Origin: a virus
DNA: 55,208 nucleotides
Direction: 5' to 3' (one strand)
IMG/VR virus record: IMGVR_UViG_3300012944_000007
The translations under genes and the position numbers were made by a program. The notes beneath the pieces are model-generated. The model saw only the letters and a program-made list of their open reading frames with translations, did not search any database and was not told the origin of the DNA. Below, in pieces: positions 16,609-43,073 of this stretch (its first letter is position 1; the number at the start of each line of letters is the position of its first letter).

Positions 16609-16862
16609 GCAACCCGCCCCTTAGTGCTGGGGACAACCGCGGTTTCGCCTGGCGCGAACGGCGTGGGGTCGTATTCCATTGGCCAGGAGTGCAACGTGGT
16701 GGGCTTCGGCTCAAGGCGTGGATCCGTCCAGCCAACCTCTGGCGAAAAGCCGTGGCCGGAGAACGGATGGTGCGCCTGGACCTCTTCTGGTGCGTGGCGG
16801 CGTCCCGCTATGCAGGCTGCGCAGGCCGCGCAGAAAGTGGTGAGTGTGGGCTCGCGGGTCAT
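16605..16862 (-). CDS. Hypothetical protein (85 aa)
   Basis: ATG at 16862 forms ATGA with the integrase stop. Confidence 0.55.
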   Translation of the reverse strand: MTREPTLTTFCAACAACIAGRRHAPEEVQAHHPFSGHGFSPEVGWTDPRLEPKPTTLHSWPMEYDPTPFAPGETAVVPSTKGRVA

Positions 16863-18595
16863 GCGACCCGCCTCTTGATAACAAACGGAATCGAAGGGGT
16901 AAAATTGGAATCGCTGGGACCACAGCCATTCCAATTTTGCCCCCCGCTGACCGCGTCCTGCGGGATTGAGATCGCGCCCCTGATGACGACTTCCTCTCCG
17001 GTCATCTCGATCCGCTCCACGGTCGATTGCAGGAACTCCCGCTTTTCCTCGAAGGTCTGGACCTCTTCCAGATCGCCCAGCATTGCGCCGAACGCCGCCA
17101 CGATGGAAGCCTCAGAATACATCATGCTGACCGGGGCGTGGCGCAGTTCCCTCTCCAGGGCCTGGATCTGAATTTCCAGGGCCGCGAACTGCGTGTTGGC
17201 CTTGCCGTGCAGCTTCTTCATGGCCGGATTGAGAATGATCGTGCCGTAGTGCTCCTGCTGCTCCCGGAGAGCCTCCAGGGCGGCTTCGGAGTCGGCCCGC
17301 CGCTGGTGGGCATCCACCCCGTGCTCTGCCCGATAAGCCTGTATGGCGGCGGCGTGCGCTACCTCGGGCTGGCGCAGGTGTTCCTTCATGGCATCGATCA
17401 CGATCGCCTCCAGCTTTGCCGCGACCATCTCGCTCGCGTGACACTTCAGGCGGATGCCGCCGCCTTGGTAGTTGTGTTTGGAGCAATAGCCGATGCCATG
17501 CCGCGCCTCGCCATTGTTGCGGAAATACCAAACGCCGCCGCAGGGGCCGTTTCCATTAGGTACGGAGCAATAGACCAGTTTGCTGAGGGGGAAGTATTTG
17601 GTCGGCCGCCCCGCCCTCTTCGTCTTGTTCTGCGTCTGGATAGCCCGTGCCAGCCGGGCCGTTTCTGCGTCGATGATCACGGGAAGATCCAGCCGCGCTT
17701 CTGTCACTCCGGACAGATCGAGAGGCTGCGCATTTCCGCCCATCAGCTTCACGCGTTCTTCATGATCGCGCTTGGCGGCCTCGATGCCCAGCCTGACCAC
17801 ATAGACGCCCGCGTAGCGGTCGGCTTTGCGCAGCACCTGGGTCACCGATTCCCGCCACCAGGCCAAGCCCGCGCGAGTCAGGATCCCCTTGCGGTTGAGG
17901 CGCATCATGATCTCGTAGGCCGTCTGCCGTTCCTCCACGTACCAGCGGAAGATCAGGCGCACGATCTTGGCCTCTTGCTCGTTGATGATCGCCCTGCCGA
18001 TGACCGCGCCCGGATTCTTTTTCGCGACCGCTTCATCCACGTAGAGGTAACCGTAAGGCATCGCGTTGGGGTTGTGGAATAACTTGTCGCCGCACAGACG
18101 GCCCATGCGGCCATCCGCGGTGCGCTCCAAAATCAGCTTCCCTTCTAACTCCGCGAAACTCGCGTACACCTGATACATCAGGTCGCCGGTCGGCGTGGCG
18201 TCGAACGTCTGGGTGGCGAATTCCAGCCGCACGCCCATGCGCTTCATCCTGGAGCGAAGCAGGTAGGCGTCTCCCGCATTGCGCGCCACTCGATCCAACC
18301 GGAGGGCAATGAACCCGCCGATCCTGCCTGCCTTCGCTAACTCGCAGCCGCGCTGAAAGTCGGGCCGCTCGTCGGTCTTGCCGCTCTGCTTGTCGAATCC
18401 AACATACTCGCACTGCCGCACATCGCGCGGCCCAGCGATGCAGGTATCCAGTCCCGGCACGCGGACATGGGGCACATTGACCTGCAGCCAGTTCCGAATG
18501 GCCTCGATCTGTCTCGACGGCCCGTACTTGTCGCCTTGGTCTTTGGAGCTTACCCGGATATAGACGAACCAAGGGAGATCAGTCTTTCGCGTCAC
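16859..18595 (-). CDS. int: Large serine recombinase (phage integrase)
   Basis: N-terminal resolvase motif WFVYIRVSSKDQGDKYGPSRQ, followed by recombinase, zinc-ribbon (CS...C..HNY...C) and coiled-coil regions. 578 aa. Confidence 0.85.
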   Translation of the reverse strand: MTRKTDLPWFVYIRVSSKDQGDKYGPSRQIEAIRNWLQVNVPHVRVPGLDTCIAGPRDVRQCEYVGFDKQSGKTDERPDFQRGCELAKAGRIGGFIALRLDRVARNAGDAYLLRSRMKRMGVRLEFATQTFDATPTGDLMYQVYASFAELEGKLILERTADGRMGRLCGDKLFHNPNAMPYGYLYVDEAVAKKNPGAVIGRAIINEQEAKIVRLIFRWYVEERQTAYEIMMRLNRKGILTRAGLAWWRESVTQVLRKADRYAGVYVVRLGIEAAKRDHEERVKLMGGNAQPLDLSGVTEARLDLPVIIDAETARLARAIQTQNKTKRAGRPTKYFPLSKLVYCSVPNGNGPCGGVWYFRNNGEARHGIGYCSKHNYQGGGIRLKCHASEMVAAKLEAIVIDAMKEHLRQPEVAHAAAIQAYRAEHGVDAHQRRADSEAALEALREQQEHYGTIILNPAMKKLHGKANTQFAALEIQIQALERELRHAPVSMMYSEASIVAAFGAMLGDLEEVQTFEEKREFLQSTVERIEMTGEEVVIRGAISIPQDAVSGGQNWNGCGPSDSNFTPSIPFVIKRRVA

Positions 18596-18960
18596 GCTTT
18601 GCCTCCCTTGCGAGTCGCTTTGCCGCCAGCCTTTCGAGCAGCCGCAGCAGCCGCAGTGCCGACCGGCGCGACAGATCCAGATCGTGGCCGCTTACCACCC
18701 TTACTGTTGGGACCTTGGGGTTCTGCATTGGCTAACTTCTCCAAGGCCGCGACCATTGCCCACGCTCGTGGCAAAGCCTTCTGTGCCATGATCCGTTGGG
18801 CCTCGGCGGGATCCCCGGTGCCGGAATTTTCGAGGTGTATCTTGCCTTTCGGATCTCGGTACGTAATCCACCAGACGCGGCCCTTGATCCTGGCGCTGCC
18901 CATGCCCCACGGAAGCTGCGGGCGCTCCTGTTGTTCTGTACTAGGCTTTTGTGATTGCAT
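18592..18960 (-). CDS. Stand-alone arm-type (tyrosine-integrase N-terminal-like) DNA-binding domain protein with a Lys/Ala-rich tail
   Basis: GRVWWITYRDPKGKIHLENSGTGDPAEAQRIMAQK resembles the N-terminal KGKWW..Y...GK...S.GT.D...A domain of tyrosine integrases. Its stop overlaps the integrase GTG start. Confidence 0.5.
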   Translation of the reverse strand: MQSQKPSTEQQERPQLPWGMGSARIKGRVWWITYRDPKGKIHLENSGTGDPAEAQRIMAQKALPRAWAMVAALEKLANAEPQGPNSKGGKRPRSGSVAPVGTAAAAAARKAGGKATRKGGKA

Positions 18961-18990
18961 GGCTCATTTTGACATTTCCCATTGGAAACC

Positions 18991-19218
18991 CGCTGGTTCC
19001 TCCTGGCCTGCCGTGCCTCGCCGCGCCCAGCCCAGCCGCGCATTGCCGGAACTTGCAAACATCCCGTTCGTGCCATTGGCACCCTCGCCTCGCCGTACCC
19101 TGCCCTGCCCGGCCTTGCCTGACCGAGCCCGACCATGCCCCACCCCACCTGACCTGACCCAGCCTTGGCCTGCCTGACCGAGCCGAGCCTGACCCGACCT
19201 TGCCCTGCCCTCGCCGCA
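18991..19218 (-). repeat. Intergenic element copy E: about 27 phased CCNNN (+ strand) pentamers 19083-19218, box palindrome 19070-19082, extra short array about 18999-19038
   Basis: I parsed the pentamers by hand and they stay in phase. Confidence 0.85.
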
Positions 19219-19241
19219 AACCTTACGAAATGAATTCTCAT

Positions 19242-19329
19242 GTGCCATTGGCACCCTCGCCCTGCCATACCTCGCCTCGCCTCGCCACACCATGCCCACA
19301 CCCTGCCAGGCCTCGCCTCGCCGTACCGA
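19242..19329 (-). repeat. Intergenic element copy D: palindrome 19242-19254 plus about 15 pentamers
   Basis: gtgccattggcac is followed by cctcg ccctg ccata cctcg cctcg cctcg ccaca ccatg .... There is one 1-nt phase slip near 19300. Confidence 0.85.
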
Positions 19330-19343
19330 AATCACAATCCCGT

Positions 19344-19446
19344 GTGCCATTGGCACCCTTGCCTCGCCGTACCATACCCAACCTTGCCTAGCCGCACCCC
19401 GCCACGCCTAGCCCCACCGGGCCTTGCCGAGCCCGACCGGACCAAA
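19344..19446 (-). repeat. Intergenic element copy C: palindrome 19344-19356 plus 18 in-phase pentamers
   Basis: ccttg cctcg ccgta ccata cccaa ccttg cctag ccgca ccccg ccacg cctag cccca ccggg ccttg ccgag cccga ccgga ccaaa. Confidence 0.85.
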
Positions 19447-19451
19447 CTTCT

Positions 19452-19946
19452 TCAGGCCTCCCGAATCATTTTCGGTTTTGGCAGAGACTTTACCGGCGCC
19501 AGGTCTATCGCCAAATCTTTTCTGGCAGTGTTCAGCGCATCCCTGATCGCGTTGGCGACGCGCTCCTGGTGATCCAAACGCTGCTGCCCCGTGCTGTCCA
19601 ATCTCGTTCGGTCGACCCATACGAAGGTCTTCACCGCATTGCCGGTCTGCTTGATCTTCTGCCGGGTCCTGATCTCAGCGTGAGCTAGAATTTCCGCCGG
19701 GCCCAGAACCTTTACGCCCACCGACGTCTCCCAGGTCATGAAAATTCCGTTGGTGTTTTTCATGCTATTGATCCAGGAGTTGATGACTCCGTAGTAGCGC
19801 TGCCCGCCCCTCTTCGCCTTCACGATTTCTTCTAAGTCGGCATGTTCAATGACTCGCCCTTCGGCGAGCATCGGCACCGGGAAAGCATCCTTCAGGCGGT
19901 TCACGTCAACCGCGTAGGGAATGCCGCCGCGAAATCCATGACTCAT
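19452..19946 (-). CDS. Hypothetical protein (164 aa), visibly lower GC than its flanks
   Basis: ATG at 19946 preceded by AGGAGG. The box palindrome ends 18 nt upstream. Confidence 0.7.
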   Translation of the reverse strand: MSHGFRGGIPYAVDVNRLKDAFPVPMLAEGRVIEHADLEEIVKAKRGGQRYYGVINSWINSMKNTNGIFMTWETSVGVKVLGPAEILAHAEIRTRQKIKQTGNAVKTFVWVDRTRLDSTGQQRLDHQERVANAIRDALNTARKDLAIDLAPVKSLPKPKMIREA

Positions 19947-19964
19947 AACTTCCTCCTTTCATTT

Positions 19965-20062
19965 GTGCCATTGGCACCCTCGCCCTGCCCAACCATGCCG
20001 CACCGCGCCCGGCCTTGCCAGGCCAGGCCCAGCCCGACCCTACCGCGCCGAGCCATGCCTTA
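19965..20062 (-). repeat. Intergenic element copy A: palindrome 19965-19977 plus 17 in-phase pentamers, the last containing the stop codon of 20060..20728
   Basis: cctcg ccctg cccaa ccatg ccgca ccgcg cccgg ccttg ccagg ccagg cccag cccga cccta ccgcg ccgag ccatg cctta. Confidence 0.9.
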
Positions 20063-20728
20063 ACTCACAATCTTCGCCTTGAACGTCCCGAACGGTCCCG
20101 GAGTCTTAGCGCTCGGCCTCCAATCTCCAAGACCCTTCAACCTTCCCGAGATGTCGAGAATACTAGCGACCACATCATTGGTGATCTGATCGTCGATGAT
20201 CATCAGTTCACCTCTCGTACTCCAATCGTCAAAACGCGGCCGGACTCGGATATGTTTGTTATTGCCGACTCTTGCGCGTTTGACAAAGAGAGAGAAGCCC
20301 AGCGCCTTAGCGCCCTCGACCTGGTCCGGGAAACGGGGGACCTTCAATAATTGATTGATATCCTCCATTCGCACCGGCTTCTTTTCCCCATTGATTAGCA
20401 AAGGCCAGTGAAATTTTTCGCATAGAATGCCGCTCTGGCTCAGTTCCTTAAAGGTCTTCCGGCCCTTGCCGGTCGGTACTTCCGCTGCGCCTCCCATGAG
20501 GCACCGCATGATGTATTCGGATGGAACGGTCACGACGCCGGTCTTCGGATCATCGTAGTTTAGGCACCCGAGCCACCTCCAGGCGGGAGTTCTATCGTCT
20601 CCTGGCTTTGACTTACTCTTGTTCTTGGGATCGTTCTTCCAGTCTTCCATCTTGTCTGCCCAGTCGATGTTATCCGCGTGCATTAAGAGCGGCATTTCGC
20701 TGGTAAGTTCCACTTCAATGGTTCTCAT
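20060..20728 (-). CDS. Hypothetical protein (222 aa), the lowest-GC gene in the early arm by eye
   Basis: ATG at 20728. It is flanked on both sides by the intergenic element. I recognise no family. Confidence 0.7.
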   Translation of the reverse strand: MRTIEVELTSEMPLLMHADNIDWADKMEDWKNDPKNKSKSKPGDDRTPAWRWLGCLNYDDPKTGVVTVPSEYIMRCLMGGAAEVPTGKGRKTFKELSQSGILCEKFHWPLLINGEKKPVRMEDINQLLKVPRFPDQVEGAKALGFSLFVKRARVGNNKHIRVRPRFDDWSTRGELMIIDDQITNDVVASILDISGRLKGLGDWRPSAKTPGPFGTFKAKIVS

Positions 20729-20759
20729 AGTTGTTGTTTCTGCCCTTCTTAGTTGATTT

Positions 20760-20917
20760 GTGCCATTGGCACCCTCGCCTCGCCGTACCCTGCCCTGCCC
20801 TGCCCTGCCCTGCCCGGCCGTGCCGTGCCCAGCCGTGCCACACCCTGCCCCGGCAAATTAAAAACCTTCTTTTCAAAAAACCCTGCCGAGCCCTGCCTCC
20901 GCCTGACCTCGCCGCGC
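20760..20917 (-). repeat. Intergenic element copy B: palindrome 20760-20772, 16 in-phase pentamers 20773-20852, an AT-rich 27-mer, and an array remnant 20881-20917
   Basis: cctcg cctcg ccgta ccctg x5 cccgg ccgtg ccgtg cccag ccgtg ccaca ccctg ccccg. The sense strand carries GGGCAGGGCAGGGCAGGGCAGGG. Confidence 0.9.
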
Positions 20918-20939
20918 TGGTGTCATCGCCATCGCGGTT

Positions 20940-37788: not shown

Positions 37789-40700
37789 TCAACTTAAACT
37801 CGTCAACGGCTCCAACATGTTCGAGGCTTGCGACACCCGGCTGTCTCCCGCCCGGGTGGCGGAAGCGTTGGCGGAAGCAACCGCCGCGGGGTTCTGCTGC
37901 ACCGCCTGTACCACCCGGCCCGTGAATAGATCGTTGGCCTGCTGCGGATTCAGCTGCATGAAAATACTGCTCACCTGCCCGCCGGCTCCCGGCACGCCCT
38001 GGCTGGTGCCCGCCATCAGCCCCTGCGCGGCGGTGACGGCGGTCTGGTATTGGTAGGTGGTCGGGCCGGTGTAGGGATTCTGCACCAGCACGCCGCCCTG
38101 ATAGACCGGCTGGGTGGCGAGGCCTCCCGCCTGCGACTGCGCGATGGTGGCGGCATACATGGGCCGCGGCAGGTTCGCCGCTTGCCCGGTCGAGAGGGCA
38201 TACAGCCGCACGATGTCTTGCACGTCCTGGGACCGGATACCGATCGTCACGCTGCCGCCGTACTTCTGATCCACGATCTGCTGGATCTGGGTGAGGATCT
38301 GGCGGTTGGAGATGTCGATGCCGTAGACCTGCTTGATGCCGGTGCGGATCCGCTCTTGCTCGGTATGCACGAACAGGCGCACAATGCCTGTGATCGCGCC
38401 CACCCCGGCTCCGATAGCCGCGCCGATGGCGGTGCCGAGTCCGGGCAGGATCATGGTGCCGATGCCCGCGCCCGCCAGTGCGCCGCCGCCGATATCCATT
38501 GCGAGGCCAGTGCCGCCGCCGCGCTGGAACCCGCTGGCGAACAACCCCAGGCCTGCGCCGGTCGCCGCCGCCGCGCCGATGCCAAGGCCGACCCCGCCGG
38601 GCATCTCACTGGCGCGCGCGATCATACTCGGATTGGTCAGAAACATCCCCGCGCCCGCCAGCGCGCCGCCCGCCACCGTCGCGGGTGCGTAGTGCTGCTG
38701 CAACCCTTTGCTGGCCAGTCCCATGCCTGCCATTAGCGCCAGCGTGCCCGCTGCCGGGGAGGTCAGGATGCTGCCGGCCGACGTGACTCCCTTGCCGTAG
38801 ATGCCGAAGAACTGCCCGAGCTTCGAGAGATTCTGTATGTTCAGACCCGCCAGATTCACTCCGCCCGCGCCCGTGGTGGCTCCTCCCGCCTTCAACGCGC
38901 CGGTTAGCAGGGGCAAGAGGGACGGACTCAACCTTTGCAGTGCCGTGAGACCCATCGGCAGGTTGGCCAGTTCCGCCACGCTGGGCCCGGTGACGGCTCC
39001 CGCGCCTTCCGCCTGAAAGCTGGGCACACCTGGCAGAAACAGTGGCTGGGCGCGCTGCGGCAACGCTGCCAGTTGAGCCATCGTAACCGCGGGAGCGCCC
39101 CCGCCGCCAGTGGCCGCGAGATAGCGGGCGTCCTCACCGCCAGGAAGGAGATCGGCGCCACCGCCACCAGCCGCTTCGGGTGCCGCTGCCATCAGCTGCG
39201 TGATGCGGGCGACGTAGGCCTTAGTCTCCGCGGGCAGCGCACGACCGGAAGCCAACCGTTGGTCTAAAGCGTGCGCGCCCATGTTGTAAGCCGCCAGCGC
39301 CAGCGGCACATTGCCGTGGTAGCGGGTGAGCATCTCCTGCAGGTGTTGTGCGCCGCCCATCACGTTTTGCCCGACATTGAACACGTCGGTCACGCCGTGT
39401 TCGCGGGCCGTCCCGGGCATCAACTGCATGAGGCCCATTGCGCCTGCGGACGAGACGGCCCCCGGTCTCATACTGGACTCGGCTTGCGCCACGGCCCGCA
39501 AGAGAGTCTGCGGCACGCCGGTGGCCCCGCTGGCTGTCTGAAAGGCCTCCTTCATGGTGGTGGTGGTATCCGCCATGCGGTCGGCGCTGCCCTCATGCTG
39601 CACGGTGGCGCCGGCGAAGTTGTTGACCGCCTCCGCGAAACGGATGGTGGCGTCGGAGTAGGCGTTGGTAGCGATCTCGTAGCTGTGCGTGCTGTTCTGA
39701 AACGCGCTGGCTACCGGGAACGAGATGTCGCTCTGCGTCGCGTTGATCTGCTGCACGTCTGGCGGCGGCAGGGGTGGCCGCGGCGGCATCCCGCGACGCA
39801 GCAGGGTTCCCAGGATCCCCTGCCCACCCCTGCCCAAGCTTTCCTGCGGCTGCCCATAACCTGCCGCTGCGGTGGCCACCCCTGCCAGTTGGCTGGCGAA
39901 TAGCTCCTTGGCCTCGCCCAGCACCAGTTTTTTGAAGAAGTCCCCCAGTGCCTGACCGAGGCTCTTGGTCTTATCGGTGAACACGTCGAACAGTTGGCTG
40001 AACTGATCCTTGAAGGCGTCGTACACCCGCTTCTGGTCTTCGATGATCAGATCGTTAGCCTTCTTCCACCCTTCCAGCCGGTATTTCTGCCCCTCGTCGA
40101 ATTGCTTCCTGGTCACCGCCGCTTCCTTATCGTCGGTTTCTTTGCGGTGGGCCTCGATCATCTTGTCCACGTCCACGCCCGCTGCGGCGAACTGCTTGCG
40201 GTAGTCGTTGGCCATCTTCTCGAAGCGGTGGAATTGATCCTCCAGGTTGTTGTTTTCGATGTCCGCAACCTGCTTCGCGGCGTCCATGCGGATCTGGGTG
40301 ATGCGGTCGATGTTGCGCACCTTGCTGCGCAGATCCTGAGCGTCCTGCGCCTCGATGTAGGCCACCTGCGCGTCGGCCGCTCCCTTGGCGCGCTCCACCT
40401 GATAGCGGGTGAATTCGTCCTCCTGCTTTTTCTGCTCCTTGAATTTCGCCCCCGCCGTCTCGGTCACTTCGGCACCGACCAGGATGGCGCGCAGTGCCTG
40501 CTGCTGGGCCTGCGGAAGGAGTTTGATCTTTTCCTCCAGTTCGCTGAAGAGGGTCGCGTATTTCAGGCGCACCGCCTCGACCGGCGAGGCCAGCGCTTCG
40601 AGTAAACTGCGCTGCGCCGCATCAGCGTGTTTCTGTTCCTCCAGACGGAGTTTCTCGAACAGCTTGGCGGTGTCGAGGATATCGCCCGGTTCGATCTGGC

Positions 40701-41949
40701 CCCCGCCCTTGAAAATCCCGGCCATGAACTTCTTGCCCTGTTCCGCCAGGCCGGTCAGGGCCGTTTTAATCTTGCCGGCCACCCCGCCGACCAGGGTATC
40801 CACCATCCCTTGGAATTGCGGGATCAGCTTATAGGCGGCAAAGGCCAACGTGCCGAGCAACACCACCGTAATGGCCAGTTGCGGGTTCATGGTCGCCAGT
40901 CCCACCGTGAACTTGAAAATCGCCGCGGTGAGACTGAGCAGCGGGCTGGCTAGACTAGTGACAATGGCGAGCGCAGTGCCAAGGGCCGCGACCGCCGCCG
41001 CCCCAGCCAAGACTTGGAGGATCACCAGCTTCGTGGGATCCGGCAGTTTCATCAGATAGTCGAGCAGACCGCCGAGCGGCGCCAGCAGGTTGCCGATCTC
41101 AGTGCCCAACTTCCTAAGCGCCGGTCCAAAGCCCTGTGGCCCGAACAGCTGGCTGACCGCGTTCTGAGCCGCGTCGGCCATATTCTTGAACGCCAGCGCG
41201 GCGTCGGCCAGCGAAGCACCGAAGCCGCCGGCCTTCCGCATGGAGTCGAGCACCACGCGGATGGTTTGCAGCGGGTCCAGAATGCCTTCCTTAATCGCGT
41301 CCCGAACTCCCTCCACGTCGATGGCGCGGCCCAGCTGCTTCGACATGGCCTCGCGCAGCGCGGTCATCACCTGCACGCCCTGCTGCGGCAGCGCCCGCAT
41401 CAGGTCCATTGCTCCGACGAAATCCTTTTCCATGATGCGACCGAAGAGGCGCACCACGTTGTTGACGTTCTCAATCGAGCCGCCCATGCGGCCCACCTGG
41501 TCGGTGATCACGCGCAGCGTGTCGGGCACGTTTTTGGCGGCCATGCCGAAGCCGAGCAACTGGCGCGCCGTCTCTTCCAGATCCTTGAACCGGAACGGGC
41601 TGGTCGCCGCGATCGCGCGCACCTGCTCGAAGACCTTGTTAGCCTCTGCCGCGCTCCCCGTGAACGACTGCATAGCCAACTGCGTGCGGCTCAACTCGGC
41701 AGACATCTGCACCATGCCGGCGATCACGCGCGCGATCCCCAGTCCTGCCAGGGCAGAGGTCAGCTGCGAGAACTCCCGGTTGACGCTCTGAATCGAGACG
41801 CCGATGGACTGGAAGCCAGCGGTGGCCTGTTTGGAACTTTTCTCTGCGGTGGGGCCGGTCGTGGCAATCGACTGATTGAGGGCGTTGACGTTCTGCTGCG
41901 CGGTCTCGCTGTTGAAATCGACTTGGAGGTAAATCGTGTTACTGGCCAC
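37789..41949 (-). CDS. Tape measure protein with an internal lytic transglycosylase (SLT) domain
   Basis: 1386 aa with Ala/Gly-rich helical repeats. The SLT motif ...AQAESSMRPGAVSSAGAMGLMQLMPGT...AAYNMGAHAL is encoded around 39258-39495. Confidence 0.85.
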   Translation of the reverse strand: MASNTIYLQVDFNSETAQQNVNALNQSIATTGPTAEKSSKQATAGFQSIGVSIQSVNREFSQLTSALAGLGIARVIAGMVQMSAELSRTQLAMQSFTGSAAEANKVFEQVRAIAATSPFRFKDLEETARQLLGFGMAAKNVPDTLRVITDQVGRMGGSIENVNNVVRLFGRIMEKDFVGAMDLMRALPQQGVQVMTALREAMSKQLGRAIDVEGVRDAIKEGILDPLQTIRVVLDSMRKAGGFGASLADAALAFKNMADAAQNAVSQLFGPQGFGPALRKLGTEIGNLLAPLGGLLDYLMKLPDPTKLVILQVLAGAAAVAALGTALAIVTSLASPLLSLTAAIFKFTVGLATMNPQLAITVVLLGTLAFAAYKLIPQFQGMVDTLVGGVAGKIKTALTGLAEQGKKFMAGIFKGGGQIEPGDILDTAKLFEKLRLEEQKHADAAQRSLLEALASPVEAVRLKYATLFSELEEKIKLLPQAQQQALRAILVGAEVTETAGAKFKEQKKQEDEFTRYQVERAKGAADAQVAYIEAQDAQDLRSKVRNIDRITQIRMDAAKQVADIENNNLEDQFHRFEKMANDYRKQFAAAGVDVDKMIEAHRKETDDKEAAVTRKQFDEGQKYRLEGWKKANDLIIEDQKRVYDAFKDQFSQLFDVFTDKTKSLGQALGDFFKKLVLGEAKELFASQLAGVATAAAGYGQPQESLGRGGQGILGTLLRRGMPPRPPLPPPDVQQINATQSDISFPVASAFQNSTHSYEIATNAYSDATIRFAEAVNNFAGATVQHEGSADRMADTTTTMKEAFQTASGATGVPQTLLRAVAQAESSMRPGAVSSAGAMGLMQLMPGTAREHGVTDVFNVGQNVMGGAQHLQEMLTRYHGNVPLALAAYNMGAHALDQRLASGRALPAETKAYVARITQLMAAAPEAAGGGGADLLPGGEDARYLAATGGGGAPAVTMAQLAALPQRAQPLFLPGVPSFQAEGAGAVTGPSVAELANLPMGLTALQRLSPSLLPLLTGALKAGGATTGAGGVNLAGLNIQNLSKLGQFFGIYGKGVTSAGSILTSPAAGTLALMAGMGLASKGLQQHYAPATVAGGALAGAGMFLTNPSMIARASEMPGGVGLGIGAAAATGAGLGLFASGFQRGGGTGLAMDIGGGALAGAGIGTMILPGLGTAIGAAIGAGVGAITGIVRLFVHTEQERIRTGIKQVYGIDISNRQILTQIQQIVDQKYGGSVTIGIRSQDVQDIVRLYALSTGQAANLPRPMYAATIAQSQAGGLATQPVYQGGVLVQNPYTGPTTYQYQTAVTAAQGLMAGTSQGVPGAGGQVSSIFMQLNPQQANDLFTGRVVQAVQQNPAAVASANASATRAGDSRVSQASNMLEPLTSLS

Positions 41950-42906
41950 GCGCCGCCCTCTCCGCCGCTTCCGCGTGGAAGCGGTTCCGCTCCTCGCTCA
42001 GGAAGCGGAGCAACAAAAACTCCGGGTAGGTGATGTCTTGGAGGCTAACGGTCACCCCCGCTTGCATTGCGAAATCCAGGTCGATGGTGAGGCCTATCAA
42101 CCGGCCTGCTGGGGTCGCTAGATATTCGTCCAGCAGCGCCAGCGGGCATTCGTCGCACGGCGGGGAGTTGGCGTCCGCGAAAGGATCGCGCATCAGTGCC
42201 TCGGGGCATTCGCCAGAACCGGGGCACAGTTGGTCGCGGCGGAGCATTCGGTGGAGGATAAACCTCGGCGAAGGTTGAGCCGGCCAACCCCCGCCCGCTA
42301 AAAATTTTCTTCGCCATAACTCGCCGCTGTTTCCCGCTCGATTTCGATAATGACCTGGCGGATCACCGAATCCTTGTGGAGAATCGGCACCGCGCCGGCG
42401 TACCCGTCCGCTTTCCCGCCGCAGGCATCCCACAGCGCCGCCGCCGCTTCCATGCTGGTGCGGACCTCCTGGCAGTTGTACGGTAGGTTTAGGTAGCGCG
42501 TCGTACGGTGCAGCTTGCGCACCTCGTCGAGGGTCGGGATGCGCACGGTGTGCGTCACCCGGCCCGTCAGGATTTGCAGCTCGGCCTCCGCCTCGTCCGC
42601 ACCTAGATCCACCCGCAGCACGTCGCACTTGCCAATGGCCTGGATAATGGTCGTGGCTTCACCCGCAGTCAAGGGAGGCGCGCCGTTGAGCTTGATGGCT
42701 TCATACATCTTCTGGTCGGCAGCGCTGGAGTCGGTCTCCATTTCCGAAGCGCCCCGGCCCATCTGGCGCATCATCAACTTGCTGCGCTTGCGGTGCATGG
42801 CCCATTCCTCGTCGGAAGGCCAGCGCACGGTAATGTCGGTCTTCCCTGCGCCAGCCACGCGCAGCCCGATGGTAATGGTTGCAGCGGTATCAAACATCGA
42901 TTTCAT
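41939..42906 (-). CDS. gpGT-like tail assembly chaperone fusion made by a -1 frameshift
   Basis: The -1 frame is open from the slippery site to 41939, adding 122 codons (KFLAGGGWPAQ...). It ends 11 nt inside the tape-measure gene. Confidence 0.6.
42298..42906 (-). CDS. gpG-like tail assembly chaperone
   Basis: Positioned immediately upstream of the tape measure. AGAGG SD. It ends ...GEENF* on the slippery heptamer. Confidence 0.65.
   Translation of the reverse strand: MKSMFDTAATITIGLRVAGAGKTDITVRWPSDEEWAMHRKRSKLMMRQMGRGASEMETDSSAADQKMYEAIKLNGAPPLTAGEATTIIQAIGKCDVLRVDLGADEAEAELQILTGRVTHTVRIPTLDEVRKLHRTTRYLNLPYNCQEVRTSMEAAAALWDACGGKADGYAGAVPILHKDSVIRQVIIEIERETAASYGEENF
42301..42307 (-). other. 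Programmed -1 ribosomal frameshift heptamer A-AAT-TTT (X XXY YYZ)
   Basis: Sense reads GGC GAA GAA AAT TTT TAG. Shifting -1 gives AAA TTT TTA GCG GGC..., which is the frame of ORF 41939..42628. Confidence 0.6.
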
Positions 42907-42930: not shown

Positions 42931-43031
42931 GGGCTTGGCTGGGCCTGGCGTGGCAAGGCTCGGCACGGCTGGGCATGGCTAGCCATGGCTGGGTTTGGCG
43001 CGGTGCGGCAAGGCGAGGGTGCCAATGGCAC
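42931..43031 (+). repeat. Intergenic element copy F (inverted relative to the others): 18 phased NGGCN pentamers 42931-43020 overlapping the box palindrome 43019-43031
   Basis: gggct tggct gggcc tggcg tggca aggct cggca cggct gggca tggct agcca tggct gggtt tggcg cggtg cggca aggcg agggt, then gccaatggcac. Confidence 0.9.
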
Positions 43032-43034
43032 ACA

Positions 43035-43073
43035 GGAAGGCGCGAGAAATAACCCACCGCGCCTTCCATTTTT
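43035..43073 (+). terminator. Plus-oriented intrinsic terminator/attenuator hairpin between element F and the plus-strand gene
   Basis: ggaaggcgcg (43035-43044), a 13-nt loop, cgcgccttcc (43058-43067), then atttttg. The stem is a perfect 10 bp. Confidence 0.65.

What the first reader, a model, noticed from the sequence alone, without database searches (positions are those of the whole stretch)
18961..20939. Six-copy intergenic element: a 5-nt-phased (GGNNN)n array capped by a 21-bp box with a perfect 13-bp palindrome
What is seen:
- On the + strand each copy reads GTGCCATTGGCAC followed immediately by 15-27 consecutive pentamers that all begin with CC. Examples are 20773-20852 with 16 units, 19978-20062 with 17, 19357-19446 with 18, and 19083-19218 with about 27.
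- In gene-sense orientation this is a G-rich (GGNNN)n array, then the conserved GG(C/T)ACGGCGAGGCGAGGGTGCCAATGGCAC(A), then a short leader and the start codon.
- Palindromes lie at 19070, 19242, 19344, 19965 and 20760 (all minus-sense), plus 43019 (plus-sense, in front of the only plus-strand gene of the tail module). Orientation therefore always follows the downstream gene.
- A period of 5 is incompatible with coding, and the ORFs called through the arrays are Gly/Arg or Pro junk.

I do not recognise this as any described element.

Hypotheses:
(i) A stoperator/operator-like site for a dimeric HTH protein, acting through the palindrome.
(ii) Module-boundary linkers for RecT/YqaJ-mediated moron exchange.
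(iii) Sense-strand G-quadruplex or R-loop formation, or a multi-SD (GAGG/AAGG) ribosome standby platform.
(iv) The antisense RNA is C-rich and G-poor, so the arrays could act as Rho rut insulators.
(v) A wrap-around site for a ring- or filament-forming nucleic-acid-binding protein, by analogy to TRAP, which reads triplets spaced about 5 nt apart.
Basis: partly seen in the sequence, partly recalled or inferred. Interest (0 to 1): 0.88.

Follow-up and report, generated by a model that had tools for sequence, protein, structure and literature searches.

The report
Phage VIPR guide-RNA genes (vrRNAs)
The six odd 5-base-periodic repeat blocks are genes for guide RNAs of a phage VIPR system, a CRISPR-like weapon first described in 2026 that phages use to silence rival phages, so the finding is real but already explained.

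Summary
The window has exactly six arrays of strictly phased GG(C/T)NN pentamers, each ending in GGGTGCCAATGGCAC.

They are not operators, recombination linkers, G-quadruplexes or Rho sites. They are vrRNA genes of a VIPR (Viral Interference Programmable Repeat) system, described in two 2026 bioRxiv preprints.

- **Vipr protein:** ORF 20060..20728(-) is a full-length homologue of the characterised phiSUSP1 Vipr. Its model has a Cas7-like RAMP fold and keeps the residues that grip the GG of each repeat.
- **Accessory gene:** ORF 19452..19946(-) is vap1-like.
- **Linkage:** 79 of 80 related loci carry same-strand arrays abutting vipr.
- **3' cap:** the "palindrome" is a 5-bp/3-nt-loop RNA hairpin with compensatory changes at all five pairs.
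- **Targets:** under the published "NN, skip one" code, guide vr19965 matches a foreign phage terminase gene at 31/32 positions. Guide vr43019 matches the start of a foreign tape-measure-like gene at 29/34. Skipped bases fall on codon wobble positions, and the phage's own homologous sites match only 15/32 and 23/34.

Verdict: a new, uncharacterised member of a known kind. Clade-specific details are the hairpin cap, longer arrays and an orphan vrRNA 22 kb away.

The parts
20760..20849 (-). vrRNA gene upstream of vipr (vr20760): 15 GGYNN units (20775-20849), GG, then the 5-bp/3-nt hairpin cap (20760-20772)
   Evidence: tail-model hit at 44.3 bits
20060..20728 (-). vipr gene (222 aa): Cas7-like RAMP protein that polymerises on the repeats
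   Evidence: tblastn against phiSUSP1 Vipr is full length, E 7e-9, and that ORF is flanked by 1+3 GGYNN arrays. AF2 pLDDT 84. Top Foldseek hits are Csm3, gRAMP and Cmr4. H17, R163, D202, W203 and R204 are conserved. phrog_4652.
19965..20059 (-). vrRNA gene between vipr and vap (vr19965): 16 units starting directly after the vipr stop codon, then the hairpin cap; 18 nt with a Shine-Dalgarno sequence precede the vap ATG
   Evidence: Predicted target is a terminase large subunit gene on L093, 31/32 NN matches with the skip on wobble positions.
19452..19946 (-). vap1-like accessory gene (164 aa)
   Evidence: Family profile A5 against the protein downstream of SUSP1 vipr: hhalign probability 94.6%, E 6.7e-8. 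A homologue lies next to vipr in about 30 of 80 loci.
19344..19443 (-). vrRNA gene (vr19344): 17 units plus hairpin cap
   Evidence: no target found
19242..19327 (-). vrRNA gene (vr19242): 8 in-phase units, with 6 more upstream after a 1-nt phase slip, plus hairpin cap; possibly degenerate
19070..19218 (-). vrRNA gene (vr19070): 25 or more units (one degenerate GCCAA) plus hairpin cap
   Evidence: no target found
42932..43031 (+). orphan vrRNA gene (vr43019), 22 kb from vipr: 17 units plus hairpin cap
   Evidence: Probable target is the start of a tape-measure-like gene on L102, 29/34.
43035..43073 (+). terminator-like hairpin (10-bp GC-rich stem, 13-nt loop, then ATTTTT), 3 nt after the cap of vr43019
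   Evidence: sequence; present in the RNA minimum-energy fold; missed by the consensus scan because of its loop length
20870..20915 (-). degenerate, cap-less GGNNN remnant upstream of vr20760
   Evidence: sequence
18995..19045 (-). degenerate, cap-less GGNNN remnant downstream of vr19070
   Evidence: sequence

Best explanation
The locus is a VIPR (Viral Interference Programmable Repeat) system of a temperate phage. It has a vipr gene (20060..20728-), a vap1-like accessory gene (19452..19946-) and six vrRNA genes.

Each array is transcribed on its G-rich strand. One Vipr (Cas7-like RAMP) protomer binds each 5-nt repeat. It buries the GGY bases and presents the two variable NN bases. The 5-bp hairpin caps the 3' end. 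The filament then pairs its NN dinucleotides with double-stranded DNA, skipping every third target base, and silences transcription of the bound gene.

Here the guides point at packaging and tail genes of related, competing phages and spare the phage's own alleles.

Shown here by computation:
- homology, fold and conserved contact residues of Vipr;
- GGY/NN architecture and cap covariation;
- gene-element linkage;
- code-conforming foreign targets.

Taken from the two preprints for SUSP1 and P. fulva: filament formation, DNA binding and repression.

Inferred for this phage: expression, processing and actual silencing.
For: - **Published system:** VIPR consists of vrRNAs of alternating GGY/NN motifs with a conserved 3' tail, a Vipr RAMP protein and a vap gene, and is mostly phage-encoded. 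Cryo-EM shows one protomer per repeat.
- **Homology to a characterised Vipr:** geneA aligns over residues 1-222 to phiSUSP1 KT454805.2 28489-29061 (E 7e-9). That ORF has one GGYNN array upstream and three downstream, as the paper describes.
- **Fold:** the AF2 model has pLDDT 84 and pTM 0.82. Its best PDB matches are all Cas7-family RAMPs (Csm3, gRAMP/Cas7-11, Cmr4, type VII Cas7), with E down to 2.5e-4 and probability 0.99-1.0.
- **Contact residues:** SUSP1 H17, R138, D177, W178 and R179 are conserved as H17, R163, D202, W203 and R204, and E71 is also kept.
- **Accessory gene:** the geneB profile matches SUSP1 vap1 at hhalign probability 94.6%.
- **Linkage:** 79 of 80 loci encoding a geneA relative have phased GG arrays abutting the gene on its own strand, and none on the opposite strand.
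- **Repeat composition:** in 99 unique guides, position 3 is a pyrimidine in 1436 of 1452 units, and the NN positions are near-uniform.
- **Cap hairpin:** in 148 model hits all 5 pairs show double-sided changes and the covariation score is 0.557 against 0.119 in shuffles.
- **Target of vr19965:** it matches L093 458-505 at 31/32. Only 18 positions were fixed by the search, and 13 of the other 14 also match. The site lies in a GpA-type terminase gene and all skipped bases fall on codon position 3.
- **Target of vr43019:** it matches L102 3701-3751 at 29/34. The site covers the start codon and 15 codons of a homologue of the window's own 1386-aa tape-measure-like gene, again with skips on wobble positions.
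- **Self sites:** the window's own homologous sites match 15/32 and 23/34, and no self-target reaches 80%.
Against: - No expression, processing or binding data exist for this phage.
- Three of five guides tested gave no exact 9-10-unit core match, and vr19242 was not tested.
- The L102 match (29/34) is only moderately significant, roughly 1e-2 after nine seed hits, before counting the phase and gene coincidence. Its mismatches include the two cap-proximal units, where R-loop formation starts in SUSP1.
- Foldseek TM-scores are modest (0.35-0.5).
- Arrays of 17-25 units exceed the 9-16 reported.
- The cap is a simple hairpin, not the SUSP1 pseudoknot.
- I did not test the other skip lengths against the public collections, so the 1-nt rule was assumed from the paper and then confirmed by extension of the match and by codon phase.
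Confidence: 0.93

Rival explanations
1. The locus is a VIPR locus, but the guides serve the phage's own gene regulation (or host regulation) and not inter-phage conflict. For example, vr43019 could damp the phage's own tape-measure gene, which lies about 1 kb away.
For: The best self-match of vr43019 is at the start of the phage's own tape-measure-like gene (23/34), close to the guide gene. Three guides have no identified foreign target.
Against: The self sites fall below the 80% NN threshold used in the paper. The residual similarity is what gene homology alone would give, since codon positions 1-2 are conserved. The foreign sites match far better (31/32 and 29/34). The paper found no self-targeting in the other VIPR clades it examined.
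Confidence: 0.04
2. The conserved palindrome is a duplex-DNA operator or 'stoperator' for a dimeric HTH repressor, and the arrays are a spacer or architectural element.
For: The sequence is palindromic, intergenic, repeated six times and in a consistent orientation.
Against: Within single genomes the two arms vary with compensatory changes (four stem variants in L002 alone). There are G.U pairs and 4-bp/UUCG-type variants, so structure is conserved and sequence is not. The same box occurs in genomes of 44-64% GC, always tied to vipr. All model hits are on the vipr strand.
Confidence: 0.01
3. The arrays act through nucleic-acid physics or host factors: G-quadruplex or R-loop formation, multi-SD ribosome standby sites, Rho rut sites on the antisense RNA, or RecT-mediated module-exchange linkers (hypotheses ii-iv).
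For: One strand is G-rich and the other C-rich. The arrays lie between genes. RecT and YqaJ genes lie nearby.
Against: None of these requires a strict 5-nt register with GG plus a pyrimidine and free NN (98.9% Y at position 3). None requires a covarying 3' hairpin, or near-obligate linkage to a Cas7-like gene (79/80). The NN content of two arrays spells foreign gene sequences in codon register, which these models cannot explain.
Confidence: 0.01

Closest known systems
VIPR systems, SUSP1 / P. fulva type (type II in bioRxiv 10.64898/2026.04.26.720920; structures in 10.64898/2026.04.26.720927)
   Same: - Phage-borne vipr (about 20-25 kDa RAMP) plus a vap1-like gene.
- vrRNAs of tandem GGYNN units upstream and downstream of vipr.
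- A conserved structured 3' cap.
- Conserved GG-reading residues.
- Targets that obey the NN-skip-1 code, with the skip on wobble positions, in competing phages, and no self-targets.
   Different: - Only 26.5% protein identity to SUSP1 Vipr.
- The cap is a minimal 5-bp/3-nt hairpin (4-bp/tetraloop in relatives) instead of a roughly 40-nt pseudoknotted tail.
- Arrays have 15-25 units (up to about 44 in a relative), against 9-16 reported.
- One vrRNA sits between vipr and vap.
- One orphan vrRNA with its own terminator lies 22 kb away in the tail module.
- The host is an uncultured soil bacterium (contig binned as Burkholderiales).
- Assignment to 'type II' is my inference from vap1 homology; the paper's type tables were not available.
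Class 1 CRISPR-Cas effector backbone (Cas7/Csm3/Cmr4 on crRNA)
   Same: - RAMP fold with a G-loop.
- One protomer per fixed-length RNA segment.
- A thumb breaks the guide-target duplex periodically.
- A variable guide is capped by a conserved structured handle.
   Different: - Period 5 with three guide bases buried and a 2+1 target code, instead of period 6 (5 paired + 1 flipped).
- No CRISPR repeat-spacer array was seen in or around the locus.
- No Pfam Cas model hit on geneA.
- Phage-encoded, and it represses instead of cleaving.
TRAP-trp leader RNA
   Same: A protein oligomer reads short conserved triplets spaced by two variable bases along an RNA.
   Different: - TRAP is a closed 11-mer ring that reads (G/U)AG for attenuation in cis.
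- Here an open RAMP filament uses the variable bases as a trans-acting guide.
- There is no fold or sequence relationship.
Mycobacteriophage stoperators and start-associated sequences (from my own knowledge)
   Same: Short conserved motifs repeated in intergenic regions of a phage genome in one orientation relative to transcription.
   Different: Those are duplex DNA sites for the repressor, or motifs adjacent to the ribosome-binding site. They have no 5-nt phased arrays, no covarying hairpin and no linkage to a RAMP gene.

Membership tests
VIPR system | Vipr protein homologous to an experimentally characterised Vipr | tested here: met
   tblastn of geneA against phiSUSP1 covers 1-222, 26.5% identity, E 7e-9. 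The SUSP1 ORF is the one flanked by 1+3 GGYNN arrays.
VIPR system | RAMP fold (RRM core, glycine-rich loop, thumb) | tested here: met
   AF2 pLDDT 84. The top 50 PDB matches are all Cas7-family RAMPs. The invariant G-rich segment GLGDWRP...PGPFG lies between the last helix and the last strand. I did not inspect the thumb separately.
VIPR system | Residues that read G1, G2 and Y3 of each repeat (SUSP1 H17, R138, D177, W178, R179, E71) | tested here: met
   The alignment shows H17, R163, D202, W203, R204 and E71 in the window protein. K33 of the helical bundle is not clearly aligned.
VIPR system | vrRNA genes: tandem YNNGG repeats with conserved GGY and hypervariable NN, flanking vipr on its strand | tested here: met
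   Six arrays in the window. Position 3 is Y in 1436/1452 units and NN is near-uniform in 99 guides. 79/80 vipr loci have same-strand arrays. Unit number exceeds the reported 9-16 in several guides.
VIPR system | Conserved, structured 3' tail capping the repeat tract | tested here: met
   A 5-bp/3-nt hairpin, with all 5 pairs showing double-sided changes across 148 hits. The structure differs from the SUSP1 pseudoknot. P. fulva also lacks a pseudoknot marker.
VIPR system | Accessory vap gene next to vipr | tested here: met
   The geneB family profile matches the SUSP1 vipr-adjacent protein at hhalign probability 94.6%, E 6.7e-8. The pairwise BLAST is weak (E 0.002).
VIPR system | Targets follow the NN + 1-nt-skip code, with the skip on codon wobble positions, in other mobile elements, and no self-targets | tested here: met
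   vr19965 matches the L093 terminase gene at 31/32. vr43019 matches the L102 tape-measure start at 29/34. Skips fall on codon position 3 in both. Self sites match 15/32 and 23/34. Three other guides have no target. Other skip lengths were not scanned in the collections.
VIPR system | vrRNAs are expressed, co-purify with Vipr, and the RNP binds and represses the DNA target | not testable with these tools
   Shown for SUSP1 and P. fulva only.
CRISPR-Cas (Class 1) | CRISPR repeat-spacer array plus cas gene set recognised by Cas profiles | tested here: not met
   No Pfam family (including the Cas7/RAMP models) hits geneA or its neighbours. The repeated units are hairpin plus GGYNN tracts, not repeat-spacer units. 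I did not run a dedicated CRISPR finder or a scan of the whole window for cas1/cas2.
TRAP-like attenuation | TRAP-fold ring protein and a cis leader controlling the downstream operon | tested here: not met
   The linked protein has a RAMP fold. Arrays occur in tandem without downstream genes, and as an orphan followed by a terminator.

The most novel reading that the evidence does not exclude
This soil-phage clade may be a distinct VIPR subtype. Its features are a minimal hairpin cap, guides well beyond 16 units, vrRNAs interleaved between vipr and vap, and orphan vrRNA genes scattered in the genome. The orphan at 42932-43031 lies about 1 kb from the phage's own allele of the very gene start it targets in a relative. 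If that placement is not coincidence, it could point to how new guides arise, for example templated from the phage's own or a co-infecting relative's gene. Guide acquisition is an open question for VIPR.
Probability: 0.1. Interest if true: 0.75.

Novelty: new member of a known kind. Interest (0 to 1): 0.38.

Why it matters
- **Independent support for the published code:** an uncultured soil phage only 26% identical to the model Vipr has a guide matching a foreign terminase gene at 31/32 positions, in codon register. This supports both the noncontiguous code and the phage-versus-phage role.
- **New details of practical use:** a 13-15-nt hairpin appears to suffice as the 3' cap. Natural guides can be 17-25 units long. 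vrRNA genes can sit far from vipr. These points could help annotate VIPR loci and design compact guides.
- **Limit:** the finding does not reveal a new kind of system.

Tried and rejected
- **Rfam:** the gathering-threshold scan of the window found no family.
- **Pfam:** nothing for vipr, vap or their neighbours. PHROGs gave only phrog_4652, 'unknown function'.
- **Hairpin regex:** my first tally was offset by one base and picked up spurious G.U pairings inside the arrays. I discarded it and replaced it with a covariance model.
- **Sigma-54 promoter reading of TGGCAC:** rejected by inspection, because no GC sits at the -12 spacing.
- **Promoter and terminator scans:** nothing useful around 18.5-21.8 kb. 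The scan also missed the 43035-43073 hairpin because of its loop length.
- **RecT idea:** I considered a RecT filament (5 nt per subunit, from memory) and dropped it once the vipr linkage and the literature were found.
- **All-against-all search:** 99 guides against about 1 Mb of fetched DNA under skip 0-3. Only the two known hits exceed background, and the 10-11-unit guides are uninformative.
- **Target scans without a result:** vr19344 (two cores in viral contigs, one in metagenomes), vr20760 and vr19070 gave no hit. The two metagenome hits for vr19070 match only the seed and are chance. The eight AT-rich viral hits for vr43019 are also chance.
- **geneB against cultured phages:** tblastn found no match. 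The geneB profile against PDB sequences found nothing meaningful.
- **Supplements:** the paper's supplementary tables are not held, so I could not check whether this contig is among its 664 loci or confirm its type.
Full report
**1. The observation**

The region 18961-20939 holds five copies of GTGCCATTGGCAC, at 19070, 19242, 19344, 19965 and 20760. A sixth copy lies in the opposite orientation at 43019. Counting both strands and allowing one mismatch gives 12 hits against 0.23 expected, and none of 100 shuffles reaches 12.

I scanned every 60-nt window for CC or GG dinucleotides falling in one 5-nt phase. Scores of 9 or more out of 12 occur in exactly these six places in the 55,208-nt window and nowhere else.

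Read on the G-rich strand, every array is a run of GG(C/T)NN units with no indels. The box continues the same register as GGGTG CCAAT GGCAC. In-phase unit counts are 25, 8 (plus 6 more after a 1-nt slip), 17, 16, 15 and 17.

Some details need correcting:
- The palindrome is 6+1+6, not perfect.
- The longer 21-bp box is shared by only three copies.
- Only some copies are followed by a start codon. Two are followed by another array, and the copy at 43019 by a terminator-like hairpin.

Rfam has no match.

**2. What the comparative data show**

An exact-pattern scan (four phased GGs plus the box) found the element on nine stretches of viral contigs and on one MAG contig. These genomes range from 44 to 64% GC.

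In L001, ten units stand in tandem between homologues of the two window genes that flank the arrays.

Across these loci the arms of the 'palindrome' change together, even within one genome. L002 alone has GGACC/GGTCC, GCACC/GGTGC, GTGCC/GGCAC and GAGCC/GGCTC. There is also a G.U case.

A covariance model built from 18 tails found 148 hits. Every hit in the vipr-homologue loci L011-L090 lies on the strand of the flanking gene. All five pairs show double-sided changes, and the covariation score is 0.557 against 0.119 in shuffles. Slid controls collapse. This alignment is fitted to the model, so the 100% pairing figure is inflated. Variants include 4-bp stems with UUCG-type loops. The box is therefore a hairpin in a single strand and not a duplex operator.

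Using the upstream ORF (20060..20728-, 'geneA', 222 aa) as query, I found more than 1,300 unannotated relatives and fetched 80 viral loci. Of these, 79 have phased GG arrays directly abutting geneA on its own strand, and none has an array in the opposite orientation. In 99 unique guides from these loci, position 3 is a pyrimidine in 1436 of 1452 units, while positions 4-5 are close to uniform.

**3. Identification**

A full-text search led to bioRxiv 10.64898/2026.04.26.720920. [quoted passage not shown]
- a phage-encoded RAMP protein, Vipr;
- vrRNAs made of 9-16 YNNGG repeats, with conserved GGY and hypervariable NN;
- an invariant structured 3' tail;
- an accessory vap gene.

The NN dinucleotides pair with double-stranded DNA while every third target base is skipped. 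Natural targets lie in competing phages, and the outcome is transcriptional repression.

A companion cryo-EM preprint (10.64898/2026.04.26.720927) gives the structural mechanism:
- One Vipr protomer binds each repeat, forming a helical filament.
- G1 is read by H17 and D177.
- G2 is read by R138 and W178.
- Y3 sits in a pocket that includes E71 and R179.
- A pseudoknot caps the 3' end in SUSP1.
- The R-loop grows in the 3'-to-5' direction.

**4. Membership tests run here**

- **(a) Homology.** geneA aligns over its full length with a hypothetical protein of phage phiSUSP1 (26.5% identity, E 7e-9). That ORF has one GGYNN array upstream and three downstream, exactly as the paper describes for vipr.
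- **(b) Fold.** An AF2 model of geneA (pLDDT 84, pTM 0.82) finds only Cas7-family RAMPs as its best PDB matches. These are Csm3, gRAMP/Cas7-11, Cmr4 and type VII Cas7, with E down to 2.5e-4 and probability 0.99-1.0. The TM-scores are modest, at 0.35-0.5.
- **(c) Contact residues.** The GG-reading residues are conserved as H17, R163, D202, W203 and R204, and E71 is also kept.
- **(d) Accessory gene.** A profile of the downstream gene family (19452..19946-, 'geneB') matches the SUSP1 protein next to vipr, which is vap1. The hhalign probability is 94.6% and E is 6.7e-8.
- **(e) Phage context.** The window is phage-like. It has a GpA-type terminase homologue, RecT- and RecE/YqaJ-like genes and a large serine integrase, and a 1386-aa tape-measure-like ORF.
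- **(f) The targeting code.** I converted the guides to xNN patterns. No self-target appears in the window.
  - *vr19965.* A 9-unit core gave one hit in the viral collection, on L093. Extending to the whole guide gives 31/32 matches, so 13 of the 14 positions not fixed by the search also match, which is about 1e-6 by chance. The site lies in a terminase large subunit gene (GpA ATPase and nuclease domains, E 2e-69 and 5e-78). Every skipped base is a codon third position. The window's own terminase matches only 15/32 at the homologous site.
  - *vr43019.* Its core gave nine hits. Eight are in AT-rich contigs and do not extend. The ninth, on L102 (65% GC), extends to 29/34. It covers the start codon and first 15 codons of a homologue of the window's own tape-measure-like gene, again with skips on wobble positions. 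The window's own site matches 23/34.
  - *Other guides.* Cores from vr19344, vr20760 and vr19070 gave no target, and the two metagenome hits are chance.

**5. Mechanism for this locus**

Shown by computation are the parts list, the homology and the code-conforming foreign targets. By transfer from the SUSP1 and P. fulva experiments, the inferred mechanism runs as follows:
1. The arrays are transcribed on the G-rich strand. Five lie within or beside the vipr-vap operon, and the sixth is an orphan with its own terminator-like hairpin.
2. Vipr protomers coat each repeat and the hairpin caps the 3' end.
3. The filaments bind the terminase and tape-measure genes of related phages and silence them, while the phage's own diverged alleles escape.

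Expression, processing and repression in this phage remain untested.

**6. Comparison and novelty**

The locus passes every VIPR feature that can be tested in silico, so I file it as a member, most like the SUSP1/vap1 ('type II') layout. The type assignment is my inference.

It differs from the published systems in these ways:
- The cap is a minimal 5-bp/3-nt hairpin instead of a pseudoknot.
- Arrays have 15-25 units, and about 44 in L005/L012, where a 15-nt sub-repeat has expanded.
- A vrRNA is inserted between vipr and vap.
- An orphan vrRNA lies 22 kb from vipr. Orphans also occur in L003 and L006-L009.

It is not a CRISPR-Cas system. I saw no repeat-spacer array and found no Cas profile hits. 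It shares with Class 1 effectors the RAMP filament-on-guide principle.

The TRAP-like 'periodic protein binding' idea is the closest to the truth.

**7. Verdict**

This is a real, correctly observed feature, now explained by a system published in 2026. It is a new, uncharacterised member of a known kind. Interest is moderate. It corroborates the published code independently in a distant clade and adds annotation-level details, but it is not a new kind of system.

Noticed in passing
window 38102-38194 (+): ARAGORN calls a 'tRNA-???' with a 4-base anticodon (gcga). It lies inside, and antisense to, the 1386-aa tape-measure-like ORF 37789..41949(-), so it is probably a false positive.
   Followed up: no
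window 41902-41952 and 42932-43031: The orphan guide vr43019 sits about 1 kb from the start of the phage's own tape-measure-like gene. Its best external match is the homologous gene start in another phage (29/34), and its best self-match is this own site (23/34). The proximity may be coincidence or may hint at how guides originate.
   Followed up: partly
L093 458-505; L102 3701-3751: Both predicted targets have the guide complementary to the coding (mRNA-sense) strand of the target gene, so the guides could in principle also pair with mRNA. With n = 2 this means little, and the paper reports targets on both strands.
   Followed up: no
L005/L012 2395-2618: One array of about 44 units contains a 15-nt sub-repeat (GGCAGGGTCTGGTTT) about six times. 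This suggests arrays grow by replication slippage in multiples of the 5-nt unit. The window's vr20760 likewise has GGCAG five times.
   Followed up: no
L001 2170-3275 (388-kb viral contig); also L006, L008, L009: L001 has ten tandem vrRNA units, preceded by an intrinsic-terminator-like hairpin after vipr. The units are separated by a conserved A-rich linker, ATTTACAAATCAAGAG. Related linkers (ACGAAACAAG) occur in the high-GC loci L002 and L004. The linker may be a processing or promoter signal.
   Followed up: no
L003, L006, L007, L008, L009: These loci have vrRNA-like arrays with the hairpin cap but no vipr homologue within the 7-13 kb fetched. Orphan vrRNA genes away from vipr therefore seem common. 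L007's copy sits in a RecT / methyltransferase-like module.
   Followed up: partly
L010 (DATKVG010000109.1, 4.4 kb): A complete vipr + vap + four-vrRNA locus with the same hairpin cap sits on a contig binned as a Candidatus Bathyarchaeia archaeon MAG. It may be a mis-binned phage fragment or an archaeal virus.
   Followed up: no
window 18995-19045 and 20870-20915 (sense -): Short, degenerate GGNNN tracts without a hairpin cap lie next to the intact vrRNA genes. They look like decayed vrRNA remnants.
   Followed up: no
window 18592-18960 (-) and 16859-18595 (-): A 122-aa ORF lies directly downstream of the vrRNA cluster. From my own reading, its N-terminus resembles an integrase arm-type DNA-binding domain, but it has no Pfam or PHROG hit. 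It overlaps by 4 nt the start of a 578-aa large serine recombinase. The VIPR locus thus sits next to the integration module.
   Followed up: no
whole window: The window equals an entire 55,208-nt contig deposited as 'MAG TPA: Burkholderiales bacterium' (locus tag VE030_11365 for vipr). Its gene content is phage-like throughout the parts I examined.
   Followed up: partly
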